Assembly (NCBI RefSeq): GCF_000317695.1
Contig: NC_019771.1
Location: forward strand, 2,463,823-2,527,822
Direction: 5' to 3'
Length of the DNA stretch: 64,000 bases
Source: Anabaena cylindrica PCC 7122
Lineage (GTDB): Bacteria > Cyanobacteriota > Cyanobacteriia > Cyanobacteriales > Nostocaceae
This document shows positions 7,284-9,861 of the stretch, in pieces. The notes beneath the pieces were generated by a model. That model did not search any database, was not told where the DNA came from, and saw nothing but the letters and a program-made list of their open reading frames with translations. Within the stretch, counting starts at the first letter, position 1. Each line of letters begins with the position of its first letter. The translations under genes were made by a program, and so were the position numbers.

Positions 7284-7358
7284 GGGGGTGTAACTCAGTT
7301 GGTTAAGAGTGCCTGTCTGTCGAACAGGAAGCCGCGAGTTCGAGTCTCGTCATCCCCG
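7284..7358 (+). tRNA. tRNA-Asp(GUC)
   Basis: Acceptor GGGGGTG/CATCCCC. Anticodon stem-loop CCTGT-CTGTCGA-ACAGG. T-arm GCGAG-TTCGAGT-CTCGT. Confidence 0.7.
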
Positions 7359-7361
7359 TGT

Positions 7362-7435
7362 AGCCTTGTGGACGAATAGATAAGTCGCTTTGATTCTCAG
7401 TCAAAGAGAAGCGGGTGCAACTCCCGTCAAGGCTT
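7362..7435 (+). tRNA. tRNA-Glu(CUC)-like
   Basis: Acceptor AGCCTTG/CAAGGCT. Anticodon loop TTCTCAG. The T-loop is TGCAACT, which is non-canonical. Confidence 0.45.
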
Positions 7436-7443
7436 GCAAATGT

Positions 7444-7519
7444 GTCCGAGTAGCCAAGTGGTAAGGGCGTTGGTCTGCAAAACTAATCATCGTGGGTTCA
7501 AATCCCACCTCGGACTCCA
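7444..7519 (+). tRNA. tRNA-Cys(GCA), CCA encoded
   Basis: Acceptor GTCCGAG/CTCGGAC followed by T and CCA. Anticodon loop CTGCAAA. T-arm GTGGG-TTCAAAT-CCCAC. Confidence 0.65.
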
Positions 7520-7525
7520 AACATT

Positions 7526-7623
7526 GCAGCGTCACCTAACGGTAAGGTACTCGGCTCATAACCGGGAGTATGTGGGTATCTCCTTCGGAGACGCTACGCG
7601 AACAACTCCCACCGCTGCGACCA
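7526..7623 (+). tRNA. aberrant tRNA-like (anticodon CAU) with ~24-nt insertion in T-loop
   Basis: Acceptor GCAGCG.../...CGCTGC followed by G-A-CCA. Anticodon stem-loop CTCGG-CTCATAA-CCGGG. The T-stem GTGGG/CCCAC encloses TATCTCCTTCGGAGACGCTACGCGAACAACT. Confidence 0.35.
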
Positions 7624-7626
7624 AAT

Positions 7627-7697
7627 GCACAGATGGTGTAACGGAAGCATAAGGGTCTCCAAAACCTTTGGTCATGGTTCAAATCCTTGTCTGTGCG
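7627..7697 (+). tRNA. tRNA-Trp(CCA)
   Basis: Acceptor GCACAGA/TCTGTGC. Anticodon stem-loop AGGGT-CTCCAAA-ACCTT. T-arm CATGG-TTCAAAT-CCTTG. Confidence 0.6.
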
Positions 7698-7702
7698 TTG
7701 AT

Positions 7703-7779
7703 GGTGCAGAAGCGAAGTGGCCGAGCGGCACGTCTTTCAAGCGTGTAATTAGCGGGTTCAAGTCCCGTCTGCACTACCA
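7703..7779 (+). tRNA. tRNA-Glu(UUC)-like, CCA encoded
   Basis: Acceptor GGTGCAG/CTGCACT followed by A and CCA. Anticodon stem-loop CACGT-CTTTCAA-GCGTG. T-arm GCGGG-TTCAAGT-CCCGT. Confidence 0.5.
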
Positions 7780-7786
7780 AATTTAT

Positions 7787-7868
7787 GGGTCGGCTCGCCT
7801 ATTGGTGTAGGTAACGGTCTGTAAAACCGCCGCGTTCAGTGTTGCTGGTTCAATTCCAGCCCGACCCA
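7787..7868 (+). tRNA. tRNA-Tyr(GUA)-like (long variable arm)
   Basis: Acceptor GGGTCGG/CCGACCC. Anticodon loop CTGTAAA. T-arm GCTGG-TTCAATT-CCAGC. Confidence 0.5.
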
Positions 7869-7872
7869 CTAT

Positions 7873-7960
7873 GGAGAGATTGCCATTGGCAGGGCAAGCT
7901 GTTTGCTAAACAGTCGTGAAATTCAACATTTCACTGTGGGTTCGACTCCCTCTCTCTCCG
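7873..7960 (+). tRNA. tRNA-Ser(GCU) (class II)
   Basis: Acceptor GGAGAGA/TCTCTCC. Anticodon stem-loop GCTGT-TTGCTAA-ACAGT. Long variable arm CGTGAAATTCAACATTTCACTG. T-loop TTCGACT. Confidence 0.6.
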
Positions 7961-7966
7961 CCTTAT

Positions 7967-8040
7967 CCCCTGGTAGCTCAGTTGGTAGTAGCGCCTGTTT
8001 GAAGAACAGGAGGTCATCCGTTCAATCCGGATCTGGGGGA
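7967..8040 (+). tRNA. tRNA-Phe(GAA)
   Basis: D-arm TAGCTCAGTTGGTAGTAGC. Anticodon stem-loop CCTGT-TTGAAGA-ACAGG. T-arm ATCCG-TTCAATC-CGGAT. Confidence 0.6.
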
Positions 8041-8049
8041 CTGGCACAT

Positions 8050-8124
8050 TGCCCCATAGCTCAATGGCAGAGCAAGGCGCTGTTAACGCCGGGGTTGTAG
8101 GTTCAAATCCTACTGGGGCAGCCA
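8050..8124 (+). tRNA. tRNA-Asn(GUU), CCA encoded
   Basis: Acceptor TGCCCCA/TGGGGCA followed by G and CCA. D-arm TAGCTCAATGGCAGAGCA. Anticodon loop CTGTTAA. T-arm GTAGG-TTCAAAT-CCTAC. Confidence 0.7.
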
Positions 8125-8264
8125 TTTATTGGGAAGTAGGCAAAGTCACATTGCCCTGAACGATAGGCTTGCAGGTTCGACCCCTGCTTCGGCATCTAAT
8201 TGTCTTTAGGCATCGAACTGGCAAACATAGTTTTTTTTATGTCACCATAAAAGCTAAAAAAACT

Positions 8265-9041
8265 ATGAGATATCGAAGTGTTCTGTCAAATAAAACCAAA
8301 GTAGAGGAAGCTGTGAAGCGTTGTTCTTCAGTCAGAGAATGCCTACATTTTTTGGGGCTACGTTCGGCTGGTGGCAACTACAAACAGTTTTACTGCTGGT
8401 GTGAGAAGCACGGTATTATTCCACCTAAAGGAAAAAATATTAATGGACTGAATAACGCCTCTAAACAAGCTCAAATTCCGTTAGAAAAAATTTTAATTTT
8501 AGGCTCTTCTTACAACAGAAATAGTTTGAAATCTAGGTTAATTCAAGAATCATTATTAGAGGAAAGATGCTATGAATGTGGGATATTGTCTAAATGGAAT
8601 GAAAAACCTCTTTGTTTGCAATTAGACCATATTAATGGCATAGCTAATGATAATCGAATAGAAAATCTACGTCTTTTATGTCCTAACTGCCACAGTCAAA
8701 CGCTAACTTTTGCAGGTAAACGAAAACCTTACTCTCGGATTGTCTTTTATTCTTGTTCCAACTGTTATGCTTCAATAACTAAATCTTCTAAGCTAGGGCT
8801 TTGTAAAAGATGTGCATCTTTAAGGTCAAACTTAAAAAGAAGGAAAGTCGAACGTCCTTCTAAAGAAGAATTGCACGAGTTGCTGTGGTCGAAGCCAACA
8901 AGTTTAGTAGCTAAAGAATTAGGAGTAAGCGATAAGGCAATAGAAAAATGGTGTAAATCTTATGGCATTCCAAAACCACCAAGAGGATATTGGAATAAAC
9001 AAAATCAATTACAAGGTTTGATAGTAAATCAAACCTTGTAA
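8265..9041 (+). CDS. HNH endonuclease
   Basis: HNH motif CYECGILSKWNEKPLCLQLDHINGIANDNRIENLRLLCPNCHSQT. The ORF-track start at 8169 would read through a tRNA-like remnant. The start was moved to the first Met after it, MRYRSV. Confidence 0.75.
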   Translation: MRYRSVLSNKTKVEEAVKRCSSVRECLHFLGLRSAGGNYKQFYCWCEKHGIIPPKGKNINGLNNASKQAQIPLEKILILGSSYNRNSLKSRLIQESLLEERCYECGILSKWNEKPLCLQLDHINGIANDNRIENLRLLCPNCHSQTLTFAGKRKPYSRIVFYSCSNCYASITKSSKLGLCKRCASLRSNLKRRKVERPSKEELHELLWSKPTSLVAKELGVSDKAIEKWCKSYGIPKPPRGYWNKQNQLQGLIVNQTL

Positions 9042-9048
9042 CGCTGAT

Positions 9049-9122
9049 TGAGAAGTCGTCTAATAGGTATGGCACCGCTCTTTGAAAGCGGAAAAATGCA
9101 GGTTCAAGCCCTGCCTTCTCAG
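9049..9122 (+). tRNA. tRNA-Gln(UUG)
   Basis: Acceptor TGAGAAG/CTTCTCA with 7 of 7 pairs. Anticodon stem-loop CCGCT-CTTTGAA-AGCGG. T-arm GCAGG-TTCAAGC-CCTGC. It starts 8 nt after the HNH stop. Confidence 0.55.
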
Positions 9123-9167
9123 TTATGTTCTCTGAAGTTTGTAATAACTTAAAGAACAATTAATTTT

Positions 9168-9266
9168 GCTCCTGTAGCCCAACTGGAAGAGGCGGCTGTC
9201 TCAAAAACAGTCTGTGTACGGGTACTGCTCCGCAGAAGCAAGCTACAACTCCCGTCAGGAGTACCA
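9168..9266 (+). tRNA. aberrant tRNA-like (anticodon CAA) with insertion in T-loop, CCA encoded
   Basis: Acceptor GCTCCTG/CAGGAGT followed by A and CCA. Anticodon stem-loop GCTGT-CTCAAAA-ACAGT. The T-stem ACGGG/CCCGT encloses a ~30-nt loop ending CAACT. Confidence 0.35.
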
Positions 9267-9270
9267 AAAT

Positions 9271-9347
9271 CGGGATGTAATTCAGTGGTCTAGAAGCCTT
9301 GTTTTGGGGACAAGGAGTCGTAGGTTCAAATCCTACCATCCCGACCA
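9271..9347 (+). tRNA. tRNA-Pro(UGG), CCA encoded
   Basis: Acceptor CGGGATG/CATCCCG followed by A and CCA. Anticodon stem-loop CTTGT-TTTGGGG-ACAAG. T-arm GTAGG-TTCAAAT-CCTAC. Confidence 0.7.
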
Positions 9348-9350
9348 TTT

Positions 9351-9424
9351 GCCCTTGTGACGAAATTGGCAAACGTGCTGGTCTTAGAAACCAGATTTTG
9401 TGGGTTCAACTCCCACCAAGGGTA
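9351..9424 (+). tRNA. tRNA-like, anticodon UAG (Leu codon) in class I body
   Basis: Acceptor GCCCTTG/CAAGGGT. Anticodon stem-loop CTGGT-CTTAGAA-ACCAG. T-arm GTGGG-TTCAACT-CCCAC. The variable arm is short. Confidence 0.45.
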
Positions 9425-9444
9425 CTGGGTATTTACCCAACTAT

Positions 9445-9522
9445 GCTCTCGTGGCGAAATTGGTAAACGCTTCCGTTTGAGGGACGGAATTTTTGCTCTT
9501 TCAAATCCTGTCGGGAGTACCA
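9445..9522 (+). tRNA. aberrant tRNA-like (anticodon GAG) with degenerate T-arm, CCA encoded
   Basis: Acceptor GCTCTCG/CGGGAGT followed by A and CCA. Anticodon stem-loop TCCGT-TTGAGGG-ACGGA. No canonical T-stem could be drawn. Confidence 0.3.
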
Positions 9523-9527
9523 ACTTT

Positions 9528-9602
9528 GGGCGTTTGGCAGAACGGTTATGCGCCTGACTTTTAATCAGGTTAAAACAGGTTCAACTCCTGTAGCGCCCAC
9601 CA
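9528..9602 (+). tRNA. tRNA-Lys(UUU), CCA encoded
   Basis: Acceptor GGGCGTT/AGCGCCC followed by A and CCA. Anticodon stem-loop CCTGA-CTTTTAA-TCAGG. T-arm ACAGG-TTCAACT-CCTGT. Confidence 0.65.
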
Positions 9603-9603
9603 A

Positions 9604-9677
9604 GCCCCTGTGGCGCAATTGGCAGACGTAGCCCGCTTAAACCGGGTTTGTTGCAGGTTCGACTCCTGTCAGGGGTA
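9604..9677 (+). tRNA. tRNA-like, anticodon UAA (Leu codon) in class I body
   Basis: Acceptor GCCCCTG/CAGGGGT. Anticodon stem-loop CCCG-CTTAAAC-CGGG. T-arm GCAGG-TTCGACT-CCTGT. Confidence 0.45.
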
Positions 9678-9751
9678 TGCGGGGATAGAGCATTCTTTGG
9701 CTCGGCAGTTTCATAAGCTGCAAACGGTGAGTGCAACTCTCACCCCCGCGT
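9678..9751 (+). tRNA. tRNA-like, anticodon CAU (Met/Ile2)
   Basis: Acceptor TGCGGGG/CCCCGCG. Anticodon stem-loop GCAGT-TTCATAA-GCTGC. T-arm GTGAG-TGCAACT-CTCAC. It directly abuts the preceding tRNA. Confidence 0.4.
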
Positions 9752-9783
9752 CCATATACAGACTGTCCTCGCTGTCTGCTTTT

Positions 9784-9861
9784 GCTGGTGTAGCTCAATG
9801 TGGCAGAGCGATCGCCGATGTTTGCGATCGGTTGCAGGTTCAACTCCTGTCACCAGCCCCA
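9784..9861 (+). tRNA. tRNA-like with 8-nt anticodon loop, CCA encoded
   Basis: Acceptor GCTGGTG/CACCAGC with 7 of 7 pairs, followed by C and CCA. D-arm TAGCTCAATGTGGCAGAGC. T-arm GCAGG-TTCAACT-CCTGT. The anticodon region GATCGC-CGATGTTT-GCGATC is non-canonical. It ends 6 nt before the transposon end. Confidence 0.4.

What the first reader, a model, noticed from the sequence alone, without database searches (positions are those of the whole stretch)
7284..9861. Array of ~20 tRNA / tRNA-like genes split by an HNH endonuclease gene, sitting inside a mobile region
Within 2.6 kb there are at least 19 tRNA-shaped genes spaced 2-30 nt apart, plus a 3' remnant at ~8130-8200. Their anticodons are GUC, CUC, GCA, CAU, CCA, UUC, GUA, GCU, GAA, GUU, UUG, CAA, UGG, UAG, GAG, UUU, UAA and CAU. 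Many encode the 3' CCA, which is uncommon for chromosomal cyanobacterial tRNAs. Several have Leu anticodons in short-variable-arm class I bodies or non-canonical TGCAACT T-loops. HNH endonucleases flank the array at 6541-7077 and interrupt it at 8265-9041. A transposon abuts its 3' end. It resembles the rare tRNA gene arrays on cyanobacterial plasmids and mobile elements, but here it is apparently carried inside a nifD-interrupting element.
Basis: seen in the sequence. Interest (0 to 1): 0.75.

Follow-up and report, generated by a model that had tools for sequence, protein, structure and literature searches.

The report
Stress-type tRNA gene array on integrated plasmid
This is a real cluster of 19 tRNA-like genes belonging to the already described cyanobacterial "L-array / trn operon" family of spare tRNA operons switched on under translational stress, carried here on a plasmid that has been joined into a nifD-interrupting element of Anabaena cylindrica.

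Summary
Covariance models tRNA-like genes on the + strand at 7284-9861, plus a decayed remnant at 8126-8200. An HNH gene lies upstream (6541-7077), a second splits the array (8265-9041), and a 3.8-kb transposon abuts the 3' end.

This is a member of the known cyanobacterial L-array (trn operon) family. Gene order matches Anabaena 7120 and about 50 other arrays. The upstream HNH is 91% identical to All8564. The promoter, with three exact and one near TGTAGTAT TrcR boxes, is almost identical to the mapped 7120 trn promoter.

About 15 genes look intact. Two carry 22-25-nt dispersed mini-repeats inside the T-loop, one has a broken T-stem, and one has an 8-nt anticodon loop. The 3' third of the array is missing, cut off at the transposon.

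The window is A. cylindrica PCC 7122 chromosome. Positions 1-13662 are 99.97-100% identical to a free 54-55-kb plasmid in sister assemblies. The join to chromosomal DNA falls exactly at the transposon end. The array therefore sits in the published 59-kb "primase P4 element", nested in the 75-kb nifD element.

The kind is known. The interest is moderate.

The parts
6148..6209 (+). Promoter and operator region of the small-ORF/HNH unit. It has TAGACA, 17 nt, TATTAT (6153-6181), overlapped by the palindromic TrcR-type site ATACTACAAATGTATTAT (6164-6181). Further boxes lie at 6148-6155 and 6202-6209.
   Evidence: The trcR auto-operator is ATACTACACTTGTATTAC (PMC10272220). The region is homologous to the one upstream of all8564 in Anabaena 7120.
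6218..6463 (+). Conserved small ORF of 81 aa with no family match. It lies between the TrcR-type promoter and the HNH gene.
   Evidence: tblastn finds it in all loci. The ORF is open in 74 homologues and its indels are in frame. Differences per codon position are 0.263, 0.285 and 0.381. No Pfam or PHROG hit.
6485..6517 (+). Terminator-like GC hairpin followed by a T run, between the small ORF and the HNH start codon.
   Evidence: The same hairpin is present in Anabaena 7120.
6541..7077 (+). HNH endonuclease of 178 aa, the orthologue of Anabaena 7120 All8564.
   Evidence: Pfam HNH_5 and HNH, E about 1e-16. 91% identical to All8564. The scan found 578 relatives; ARAGORN calls arrays of at least 10 tRNAs in about 50 of the 80 loci kept.
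7155..7207 (+). Array promoter: TTGACA (7167-7172), 18 nt, TAGTAT (7191-7196). TGTAGTAT TrcR boxes lie at 7155, 7177 and 7189, with a near copy at 7200.
   Evidence: Near-identical to the mapped Anabaena 7120 trn promoter (PMC8421152; PMC10272220).
7284..7359 (+). tRNA-Asp(GTC).
   Evidence: RF00005, 66.4 bits. ARAGORN.
7362..7435 (+). tRNA-Glu(CTC) with a TGCAACT T-loop (G at position 55).
   Evidence: 44.1 bits. The G55 loop is invariant in 19 orthologues, and the anticodon stem shows compensating changes.
7444..7519 (+). tRNA-Cys(GCA); CCA encoded.
   Evidence: 64.3 bits..
7525..7623 (+). tRNA(CAT) number 1, disrupted by a 25-nt mini-repeat (7578-7602) between T54 and C56 of the T-loop; CCA encoded.
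   Evidence: RF00005, 39.5 bits, in the local scan only. Intact orthologues lack the insert. ARAGORN recognises it as a tRNA once the insert is removed in silico.
7626..7698 (+). tRNA-Trp(CCA).
   Evidence: 56.1 bits.
7703..7779 (+). tRNA-Glu(TTC); CCA encoded.
   Evidence: 36.7 bits. 95% identical to the Anabaena 7120 orthologue.
7787..7869 (+). tRNA-Tyr(GTA), class II with a long variable arm.
7873..7962 (+). tRNA-Ser(GCT), class II with a long variable arm.
   Evidence: ARAGORN. In the clan competition it is matched by the tRNA-Sec model at 44.1 bits.
7967..8041 (+). tRNA-Phe(GAA).
   Evidence: 52.4 bits. 100% identical to the Anabaena 7120 orthologue.
8050..8124 (+). tRNA-Asn(GTT); CCA encoded.
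   Evidence: 66.1 bits.
8126..8200 (+). Decayed tRNA-Gln(CTG) remnant; only the T-arm and the 3' acceptor half remain recognisable.
   Evidence: No covariance-model hit. Aligned with intact Gln-CTG orthologues.
8265..9041 (+). Free-standing HNH endonuclease gene of 258 aa, inserted between the Gln-CTG remnant and Gln-TTG. It has the same orientation as the array.
   Evidence: phrog_10822, 2.4e-36. Pfam HNH and HNH_3. It is absent at this junction in L002 and most arrays. Homologues 69-72% identical occupy the same junction in L102 and L103. Relatives at 37-39% identity sit at other junctions in L024, L030 and L043.
9048..9123 (+). tRNA-Gln(TTG).
   Evidence: 55.9 bits.
9168..9266 (+). tRNA(CAA), a short-arm 'Leu' gene, disrupted by a 22-nt mini-repeat (9224-9245) at the same T54/C56 position; CCA encoded.
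   Evidence: 34.8 bits in the local scan.. A 13-nt psi-loop in a PCC 7122 tRNA-Leu gene (anticodon and position not given) was noted in PMC6933170; probably this gene.
9271..9347 (+). tRNA-Pro(TGG); CCA encoded.
   Evidence: 58.4 bits. 100% identical to the Anabaena 7120 orthologue.
9351..9425 (+). tRNA(TAG) 'Leu' with a class-I body, a G1-U72 pair and A73.
   Evidence: 64.9 bits. 12 of 20 pairs covary across 16 orthologues.
9445..9522 (+). tRNA(GAG) 'Leu' with a mutated 5' T-stem strand, probably a pseudogene; CCA encoded.
   Evidence: 31.3 bits. Missed by ARAGORN. Aligned with orthologues.
9528..9602 (+). tRNA-Lys(TTT); CCA encoded.
   Evidence: 64.3 bits.
9604..9677 (+). tRNA(TAA) 'Leu' with a class-I body.
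   Evidence: 51.3 bits. 10 of 21 pairs covary across 27 orthologues.
9678..9754 (+). tRNA(CAT) number 2 with a TGCAACT T-loop; CCA encoded.
   Evidence: 35.1 bits. ARAGORN..
9784..9861 (+). tRNA-Thr(TGT) derivative with an 8-nt anticodon loop (CGATGTTT) and a HIP1-like GCGATCGC sequence in the stem; CCA encoded. Probably a pseudogene.
   Evidence: 52 bits. ARAGORN reports anticodon 'atgt'. Aligned with intact Thr orthologues.
9868..13662 (+). A 3795-bp transposon with TGTAGCG...CGCTACA ends. The 165-bp inverted repeats (9868-10032 and 13498-13662) carry CCAGGATTAAWTGCAAC motifs. It encodes a serine resolvase (10281-10850), a DDE transposase (10840-12501) and a TniB-like ATPase (12491-13461). 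The ATPase gene is frameshifted by a 1-nt deletion at 13046.
   Evidence: It replaces the 3' third of the array; compare L002.
13658..14821 (-). The first 387 codons of a 1056-aa DUF3854 'primase P4' gene, cut at the transposon's right end. This is the junction between plasmid-like and chromosomal DNA.
   Evidence: The gene is intact in CP186034.1. The repeat CATATACT lies at 13661-13668 and is the reverse complement of AGTATATG in Hilton's Table B.
25832..26301 (+). Right border of the 75-kb nifD element (TATACCCTG, 25832-25840), followed by the middle nifD fragment, then the left TACTCCG repeat (26295-26301) of the 15.19-kb XisA element.
   Evidence: PMC4874684, Table B.
39946..41631 (.). 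xisA (39946-41250, minus strand), the right TACTCCG repeat (41485-41491) and the 3' end of nifD (to 41631, plus strand).

Best explanation
The locus is a truncated and partly decayed member of the cyanobacterial L-array (trn operon) family. This is a horizontally mobile operon of supernumerary tRNA genes.

It is most likely transcribed as one precursor from the sigma-70-type promoter at 7167-7196. That promoter would be kept silent by the chromosomal RHH repressor TrcR binding the TGTAGTAT boxes that overlap the -10 hexamer. It would be de-repressed when translation is impaired, supplying extra tRNAs. About 15 of the 19 genes look usable.

The upstream module consists of a TrcR-type promoter, a conserved 81-aa ORF, a hairpin and the All8564-type HNH gene. 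It is the conserved companion of the array and is probably co-regulated with it. The second HNH gene is a free-standing homing-type endonuclease gene sitting at the Gln-CTG|Gln-TTG junction.

The whole unit sits on a plasmid of about 55 kb. In this genome (A. cylindrica PCC 7122) the plasmid is joined to the chromosome through a 3.8-kb resolvase-carrying transposon. That places it inside a 59-kb element nested in a 75-kb nifD-interrupting element.

Shown here: the anatomy, the homology, conservation of the promoter and operator, and the position of the junction. Inferred from Anabaena 7120 experiments: repression, stress induction and use of the tRNAs in translation. Inferred from structure: homing by the internal HNH and the cointegrate origin.
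For: - tRNA calls.
- Gene order is shared with Anabaena 7120 and about 50 other arrays. Individual tRNAs are 66-100% identical to their 7120 orthologues.
- The upstream HNH is 91% identical to All8564.
- The promoter aligns almost base for base with the 7120 trn promoter. At least one exact TGTAGTAT box lies upstream of 44 of 48 arrays, against a background of 0.024 per 260 nt.
- Literature: the 7120 operon is induced 100- to 1000-fold by ribosome-targeting antibiotics, and 23 of its 26 tRNAs are aminoacylated and found on polysomes (PMC8421152). TrcR binds TGTAGTAT and represses both trn and all8564 (PMC10272220).
- The short-arm Leu tRNAs covary at 10 of 21 and 12 of 20 pairs.
- Internal HNH: PHROG and Pfam hits, and presence/absence at one and the same junction.
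- Context: window 1-13662 is 99.97-100% identical to plasmids AP018171.1 and CP186040.1. Window 31853-53388 is identical to chromosome CP186034.1, where the 1056-aa gene is intact.
- Proteins AFZ57638 and AFZ57639 place the window on the 6,395,836-bp PCC 7122 chromosome.
- Hilton's Table B coordinates fit the window exactly.
- Size check: 59,225 bp is about 55,395 (plasmid) plus 3,795 (transposon).
Against: - No expression, binding or cleavage data exist for this strain.
- The array lacks its 3' third, from Gly onward: in related arrays Gly, Val, Arg-TCT, Ala, His and Ser-TGA.
- It also lacks Arg-ACG and Lys-CTT, and five members are degenerate. Any benefit may therefore be reduced or lost.
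- The TrcR gene lies outside the window and was not checked.
- A plain transposon cointegrate would not be expected to excise precisely. Yet a preprint reports precise restoration of the primase P4 gene in 67% of heterocyst genomes (10.1101/629832). The integration and excision chemistry is therefore unresolved.
- Sister assemblies carry the plasmid free, so an assembly mis-join across the 3.8-kb repeat cannot be excluded from the sequence alone.
Confidence: 0.85

Rival explanations
1. The array is a decaying relic carried passively. It is no longer useful to this host, and its conservation reflects recent horizontal spread rather than function.
For: - The transposon truncates the 3' end.
- Five of 20 members are disrupted: two by mini-repeat inserts, one by a broken T-stem, one by an 8-nt anticodon loop, and one is only a remnant.
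- Dispersed mini-repeats accumulate in arrays generally: 37 disrupted genes in 27 loci.
Against: - The promoter and operator are conserved almost base for base with the functional Anabaena 7120 promoter.
- The remaining genes keep perfect cloverleaves, and their orthologues covary.
- Identical copies persist in several A. cylindrica assemblies.
Confidence: 0.15
2. The position of the array inside the nifD element is an assembly artefact. The plasmid is really free, and the assembler joined it to the chromosome across the multicopy 3.8-kb transposon.
For: - The homology switch lies exactly at the transposon end.
- Two other assemblies hold the same DNA as a 54-55-kb plasmid, and one of them also has an intact target gene.
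- Short-read contigs break at both transposon ends.
- Seven identical resolvase genes exist in PCC 7122 (PMC4874684).
Against: - A Logan contig (SRR3926592_425) independently contains the truncated 387-aa gene and runs 29 bp into the transposon end.
- Hilton 2016 defined the 59.2-kb element by its direct repeats.
- The Qiu preprint measured the interrupted primase gene by qPCR as more than 99.9% of vegetative-cell copies in ATCC 29414.
Confidence: 0.12
3. The array is a phage-derived tRNA cluster that supports translation of a prophage lying within the nifD element.
For: Phage-like genes lie further along in the window: a collagen-like tail-fibre gene at 22119-24662 and a RusA gene. HNH genes next to tRNA clusters are typical of T4-like phages (PMC8421152).
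Against: - No phage record holds a related array; only single-tRNA or HNH-motif matches were found.
- The array belongs to the plasmid-like segment with DUF3854 helicase, Mob and Toprim genes, not to the phage-like segment beyond the transposon.
- It carries host-type TrcR operators.
Confidence: 0.03
4. The array is a simple segmental duplication of housekeeping chromosomal tRNA genes.
For: None was found.
Against: - The four Leu-anticodon genes have class-I bodies, unlike canonical bacterial tRNA-Leu (established knowledge).
- Two genes have G55 T-loops, and ten encode CCA.
- The order and sequences match plasmid arrays of other genera.
Confidence: 0.01

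Closest known systems
The trn operon (L-array) of Anabaena/Nostoc sp. PCC 7120 plasmid delta, with its companion HNH gene all8564 (Puerto-Galan & Vioque 2012; Santamaria-Gomez et al. 2021, PMC8421152)
   Same: The order of tRNA genes is the same. The upstream HNH is the same (91% identity). So are the small ORF and hairpin upstream of the HNH, and the promoter with its TGTAGTAT repeats. 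The short-arm Leu tRNAs and the G55 Glu-CTC tRNA are shared, and both arrays are plasmid-borne.
   Different: The window has 19 genes plus a remnant, against 26 in Anabaena 7120. A transposon has removed the 3' third. An extra HNH gene sits inside the array. Two members carry T-loop mini-repeats, which my scan did not find in 7120. The carrier plasmid is integrated in a nifD-nested element.
TrcR regulon (Wang et al. 2023, PMC10272220)
   Same: A TGTAGTAT box overlaps the -10 TAGTAT of the array promoter. A palindromic site resembling the trcR auto-operator lies upstream of the HNH unit.
   Different: Binding was not tested in A. cylindrica, and TrcR is not encoded in the window.
Free-standing homing endonucleases in phage tRNA clusters (T4 SegB, as cited in PMC8421152)
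   Same: A compact nuclease gene lies wedged between tRNA genes. It is present or absent at the same junction in otherwise collinear arrays.
   Different: This is an HNH enzyme, whereas SegB is a GIY-YIG enzyme (from my own knowledge). Cleavage and homing have not been demonstrated.
Heterocyst-excised interruption elements of A. cylindrica PCC 7122 (Hilton et al. 2016, PMC4874684; Qiu et al. preprint 10.1101/629832)
   Same: The window coordinates reproduce the published elements: the 15.19-kb XisA nifD element, the border of the 74.986-kb nifD element, and one end of the 59.225-kb primase P4 element. The preprint counts '15 tRNA genes' among the genes removed with the six elements.
   Different: In the passages I read, those papers treat the 59-kb element as prophage-like. 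I saw no link to a free plasmid or to the L-array family, though I did not read either paper in full. Here the element equals a plasmid of sister assemblies plus one extra transposon copy.
Small dispersed repeats (SDR) of Nostocaceae (Elhai et al. 2008, Genome Res 18:1484). This rests on my memory; the paper could not be read.
   Same: These are mini-elements of 20-27 nt with small hairpins. They are dispersed and can be nested inside one another.
   Different: I could not confirm sequence identity to any named SDR family. I did not find insertion at T54/C56 of tRNA T-loops described in the papers I could read.

Membership tests
Cyanobacterial L-array / trn operon | A long run of same-strand tRNA genes with very short intergenic distances, forming a potential operon. 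| tested here: met
   19 tRNA-like genes plus one remnant within 2.6 kb. Gaps are 0-44 nt, apart from the HNH insertion.
Cyanobacterial L-array / trn operon | Gene order shared with the Anabaena 7120 array, indicating common ancestry. | tested here: met
Cyanobacterial L-array / trn operon | An All8564-type HNH gene immediately upstream. | tested here: met
   91% identity over 178 aa.
Cyanobacterial L-array / trn operon | The genes are supernumerary: the housekeeping tRNA set is complete without the array. | not testable with these tools
Cyanobacterial L-array / trn operon | Silent under standard conditions, and induced and aminoacylated under translational stress. | not testable with these tools
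   Known only for Anabaena 7120.
TrcR regulon | A TGTAGTAT-type site overlapping the -10 box and transcription start. | tested here: met
   A box at 7189-7196 overlaps TAGTAT at 7191-7196. Further boxes lie at 7155, 7177 and 7200.
TrcR regulon | TrcR is present in the genome and binds the site. | not tested
   TrcR is not encoded in the window. The paper reports that it is widely conserved in cyanobacteria.
Free-standing homing endonuclease gene (internal HNH, 8265-9041) | A nuclease catalytic domain. | tested here: met
   Pfam HNH and HNH_3; phrog_10822, 2.4e-36.
Free-standing homing endonuclease gene (internal HNH, 8265-9041) | Presence/absence polymorphism at one defined site in otherwise homologous DNA. 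| tested here: met
   Absent in L002 and most arrays. Present at the same Asn/Gln-CTG | Gln-TTG junction in L102 and L103.
Free-standing homing endonuclease gene (internal HNH, 8265-9041) | Cleaves the empty site and is copied into it. | not testable with these tools
   This requires an enzyme assay.
XisA-type nifD element | Lies within nifD, is flanked by TACTCCG direct repeats, and has xisA at one end. | tested here: met
   This holds for 26295-41491. The array is NOT inside this element.
Position-894 nifD element (74.986 kb) with the nested primase P4 element (59.225 kb) | The array lies between the element borders. | tested here: inconclusive
   The right borders are in the window: TATACCCTG at 25832 and CATATACT at 13661. 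The left borders are outside it. Inclusion follows from the published coordinates.
Tn5053/Tn402-like (TniA-TniB-resolvase) transposon | Terminal inverted repeats with TGT...ACA ends; a DDE transposase, an AAA+ partner and a serine resolvase. | tested here: met
   The family name is my inference from gene content. No TniQ was identified.
Tn5053/Tn402-like (TniA-TniB-resolvase) transposon | A target-site duplication flanking a single insertion. | tested here: not met
   The flanks differ both in the window and in the plasmid copy. This fits a cointegrate or an adjacent deletion rather than a simple insertion.
Small dispersed repeats (SDR) | A short, dispersed, multi-copy sequence family found in unrelated contexts. 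| tested here: met
   74 pattern matches inside arrays and about 25 element-like copies elsewhere (70 raw matches, most to the loose type-C pattern) in 1.56 Mb of loci. More than 120 metagenome stretches hold one 20-mer, and only 5 of 80 of those sit in tRNA genes.
Small dispersed repeats (SDR) | Sequence identity to a named SDR family of Elhai 2008. | not tested
   The paper is not held.

The most novel reading that the evidence does not exclude
The published 59-kb 'primase P4 element' of A. cylindrica would be a complete plasmid, carrying the stress tRNA operon, that shuttles between two states. In vegetative cells it is integrated; in heterocysts, and in some culture lines, it is free. The switch would use the serine recombinase of a 3.8-kb transposon. 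The copy number, and possibly the expression, of the tRNA array would then differ between cell types.

A further, less likely reading is that the mini-repeat inserts in T-loops are removed at the RNA level. The RtcB ligase is co-regulated with these operons in Anabaena 7120. I put this below 5%.
Probability: 0.2. Interest if true: 0.55.

Novelty: new member of a known kind. Interest (0 to 1): 0.35.

Why it matters
The family's biology is already established in Anabaena 7120: a silent reserve of tRNAs released when translation is stressed. This locus adds a natural variant in a second model species.

It shows three ways in which such arrays are remodelled:
- an HNH gene homing into one particular tRNA junction;
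- dispersed mini-repeats landing precisely between positions 54 and 56 of T-loops;
- truncation by a transposon.

It also links two bodies of literature that have not been connected. The 'primase P4' DNA element excised in heterocysts appears to be an integrated copy of the plasmid that carries the L-array. That gives a concrete, testable case of plasmid-chromosome cointegration inside a developmentally excised element.

The conserved class-I bodies of all four Leu-anticodon tRNAs remain an open question for aminoacylation identity.

Tried and rejected
- **Phage origin.** A distant blastn of 6541-9861 against 50,697 phage records gave only single-tRNA or HNH-motif matches. Rejected.
- **T-loop inserts target hairpin loops in general.** Flanking stems of at least 5 bp occur in 17 of 80 metagenomic copies, against 12 of 80 in the shuffled control. 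Rejected. The consistent flanks are T or C before the element and CA after it.
- **T-loop inserts are specific to tRNA genes.** Only 5 of 80 unbiased copies lie in tRNA genes. Rejected. They are general dispersed repeats, apparently tolerated in dispensable array genes.
- **The conserved stretch upstream of the HNH (6250-6463) is an RNA leader rather than a gene.** There is no Rfam hit. The ORF is open in 74 homologues with in-frame indels, but the third-position excess is only modest. I lean towards coding; this is unresolved.
- **Target-site duplication around the transposon.** None was found in the window or in the plasmid copy.
- **Papers not held.** Puerto-Galan & Vioque 2012 and Elhai 2008 could not be read.
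- **Records not in the collections.** The 847-aa protein has no exact record. AP018171.1 is not in the annotated collections.
- **A weak Rfam match** to cyano_het_sRNA at 8984-9039 (27.3 bits against a gathering score of 35.7, E = 0.016) lies inside the HNH ORF and was treated as chance.

Full report
**1. The observation**

ARAGORN finds 16 tRNA genes on the + strand between 7283 and 7861-9861 region limits 7283 and 9861. Rfam's tRNA model at curated thresholds finds 15 of them in the whole-window scan. A local scan raises this to 19 tRNA-clan hits, with E-values from 1e-13 to 6e-4. That scan adds 7525-7620 (CAT), 9168-9263 (CAA) and 9679-9750 (CAT); 9445-9519 (GAG) just passes the threshold.

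Gaps between genes are 0-44 nt, apart from one of 847 nt. The 19th gene (9784-9861) has an 8-nt anticodon loop.

Ten of the 19 genes encode CCA. Pfam and PHROGs confirm HNH nucleases at 6541-7077 and 8265-9041. The 8126-8200 stretch gives no model hit. Its 3' half aligns with intact tRNA-Gln(CTG) genes of related arrays, so it is a decayed copy.

**2. What it is**

A search for relatives of the upstream HNH in one genome per species found 578. ARAGORN calls an array of at least 10 tRNAs in about 50 of the 80 loci kept, in this order: Asp, Glu, Cys, Met, Trp, (CTA/CTT), Glu, Tyr, Ser, Arg, Phe, Asn, Gln, Gln, Leu, Pro, Leu, Leu, Lys, Lys, Leu, Met, Thr, Gly, Gly, Val, Arg, Ala, His, Ser. The Anabaena 7120 delta-plasmid array has the same order.

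This family is the 'L-array / trn operon' of Santamaria-Gomez et al. 2021. In Anabaena 7120 it is silent and is induced 100- to 1000-fold by ribosome-targeting antibiotics. Twenty-three of its 26 tRNAs are charged and reach polysomes. The conserved HNH gene all8564 is co-regulated with it (PMC8421152).

Wang et al. 2023 showed that the RHH repressor TrcR binds TGTAGTAT, which overlaps the -10 TAGTAT of the trn promoter, and that it also controls all8564 (PMC10272220).

- The window's HNH is 91% identical to All8564.
- The window has TTGACA, 18 nt, TAGTAT at 7167-7196. Three exact TGTAGTAT boxes and one near copy lie at 7155-7207.
- This region aligns almost base for base with the 7120 promoter.
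- Across 48 arrays, 44 carry at least one exact box in the 260 nt upstream. The background is 0.024 per 260 nt.
- A second promoter-like site (6153-6181) is overlapped by ATACTACAAATGTATTAT. That closely resembles TrcR's own operator, ATACTACACTTGTATTAC.
- This second promoter precedes a conserved 81-aa ORF, a terminator-like hairpin and the HNH gene. The 7120 plasmid has the same layout.

**3. State of the individual genes**

Fifteen genes fold as normal cloverleaves.

All four Leu-anticodon genes have class-I bodies with A73 and a G1-U72 first pair. This is a property of the family, not decay. Orthologues of the TAA and TAG genes keep the cloverleaf through compensating changes at 10 of 21 and 12 of 20 pairs. 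Tyr and Ser keep their long variable arms.

The TGCAACT (G55) T-loop of Glu-CTC is invariant in 19 orthologues.

Five members are damaged:
- The GAG gene has a mutated T-stem strand.
- The last gene is a tRNA-Thr(TGT) whose loop changed from CTTGTAA to CGATGTTT.
- The Gln-CTG gene survives only as the remnant at 8126-8200.
- The first CAT gene carries a 25-nt insert at 7578-7602.
- The CAA gene carries a 22-nt insert at 9224-9245. Both inserts lie exactly between T54 and C56.

**4. The T-loop inserts**

The same kind of insert occurs in many arrays. There are three main types: ACCCTTCGGGAAGCAAGCTA, ACCCTTCGGGAAGCCGCTCCGCGTCTA and ACCCTTCGGGAACGCTnnCGCGAA. Nested compounds also occur, and the first small stem varies (CCC/GGG, CTGC/GCAG, CCGC/GCGG, TCTCC/GGAGA).

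Thirty-seven such genes, in 27 loci and 15 anticodon classes, become ARAGORN-recognised tRNAs once the insert is replaced by a single T.

The elements also occur outside tRNA genes. In an unbiased sample of 80 metagenomic copies of one 20-mer, only 5 lie in tRNA genes. Flanking hairpins are no more frequent than in a shuffled control. The common flanks are T or C before the element and CA after it.

I therefore read them as a general dispersed mini-repeat. From memory, they resemble the SDR elements of Elhai 2008, but I could not check this. They would land in the TTCAA of T-loops and be tolerated in dispensable array genes.

Anabaena 7120 has none by my scan. An enlarged psi-loop in a PCC 7122 tRNA-Leu had been noted without explanation (PMC6933170).

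**5. The internal HNH**

The gene is compact: its stop codon lies 6 nt before tRNA-Gln(TTG). It is co-oriented with the array.

The closest array (L002, A. azotica plasmid) has Asn and Gln-TTG only 5 nt apart, with no HNH between them. Homologues 69-72% identical occupy the same junction in two other arrays (L102, L103). More distant relatives (37-39%) and remnants sit at other junctions.

This presence/absence pattern fits a free-standing homing endonuclease gene, as proposed for this family by analogy with T4 SegB. Cleavage is untested.

**6. Genomic context**

Proteins AFZ57638 and AFZ57639 identify the source as the 6,395,836-bp chromosome of A. cylindrica PCC 7122.

The window contains xisA, TACTCCG repeats exactly 15,190 bp apart (26295 and 41485), a middle nifD fragment preceded by TATACCCTG (25832), the nifD 3' end, and nifK, nifE and nifN. 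These match Hilton et al.'s Table B:
- a 15.19-kb nifD element;
- a 74.986-kb nifD element at position 894;
- inside the latter, a 59.225-kb 'primase P4' element with repeat AGTATATG and a serine recombinase 413 bp from its end.

The reverse complement of that repeat lies at 13661-13668. The window's resolvase gene starts 413 bp from the transposon's left end.

Window 1-13662 is 99.97-100% identical to a plasmid of 54-55 kb in two other assemblies, AP018171.1 and CP186040.1. Window 31853-53388 is identical to chromosome CP186034.1 of one of them. There the DUF3854 'primase' gene is intact at 1056 aa. In the window it is cut to 387 codons, exactly at the right end of the 3795-bp transposon.

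Plasmid plus one extra transposon copy (55,395 + 3,795) gives about 59.2 kb. The simplest reading is a transposon-mediated cointegrate, or recombination between two transposon copies.

A preprint reports that this element is precisely excised in 67% of heterocyst genomes but only 0.03% of vegetative ones. It lists '15 tRNA genes' among the lost genes (10.1101/629832). A plain cointegrate should not excise precisely, so the chemistry is unresolved.

The transposon also marks where the array ends. L002 continues with Gly, Arg, Ala and Ser genes beyond the point where the window's homology stops at 9869.

**7. Verdict**

Both the observation and the interpretation are sound. The locus is a new, partly decayed member of a well-described family, so novelty is limited.

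In the papers I could read, I did not find the following described:
- the site-specific T-loop mini-repeat insertions across arrays;
- the recurrent HNH insertion at the Gln junction;
- the equivalence of the 'primase P4 element' with a free plasmid carrying the L-array.

Noticed in passing
window 33191-33341 (- strand): Two adjacent tRNA genes, Lys(TTT) and Ile(TAT), score 64-69 bits. They lie inside the 15-kb XisA nifD element, next to a Band_7 gene and a PhdYeFM/PIN pair. tRNA-Ile(UAU) is rare in cyanobacteria: 2 in 61 genomes according to PMC6933170.
   Followed up: no
window 6218-6463: A conserved 81-aa ORF with no family match lies between a TrcR-type promoter and a terminator-like hairpin (6485-6517), just upstream of the HNH. 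It is present in all fetched loci and in Anabaena 7120. Whether it is a protein or a leader RNA is not settled.
   Followed up: partly
related loci, e.g. L004 5952-6023, L012 6420-6491, L027 11216-11287, L060 11155-11226: Between Trp and Glu-TTC, ten arrays carry a near-identical tRNA with the amber-suppressor anticodon CTA. Eight others have the same gene with CTT. The window lacks this gene.
   Followed up: partly
window 13046: The window's transposon copy has a 1-nt deletion in a T run, which frameshifts the TniB-like ATPase gene. That gene is 323 aa in AP018171.1. The difference may be real or a homopolymer sequencing error.
   Followed up: partly
window 37872-39321: An ISL3 element next to xisA is 99% identical to the ISL3 copy just upstream of cynS on the plasmid (L081 1585-3034). 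This gives a second stretch of plasmid-chromosome homology.
   Followed up: no
L102 5941-8774 and L103 1451-1831: Related arrays are flanked or interrupted by a PARG-like gene, an RNA ligase (PF09414), EF-Tu and an Alr0857-family gene. alr0857 belongs to the TrcR regulon in Anabaena 7120. This fits the reported enrichment of translation and RNA-repair genes near L-arrays.
   Followed up: no
metagenome loci L105-L184: Many copies of the 20-nt mini-repeat sit in one recurring larger context (...gccc|ACCC..CTA|caccccaacccctctccc...). This suggests that the mini-repeat is itself part of, or a preferred guest of, another repeat family.
   Followed up: no
window 22119-24662 (- strand): A collagen-repeat, tail-fibre-like gene is 847 aa here. 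It is 875 aa in FACHB-243 and is split into 506 and 449 aa in CP186034.1. It is therefore a variable repeat gene within otherwise identical DNA.
   Followed up: no
window 966-1406: A cyanate lyase gene (cynS) is carried on the plasmid-like segment, next to the DUF3854 helicase.
   Followed up: no
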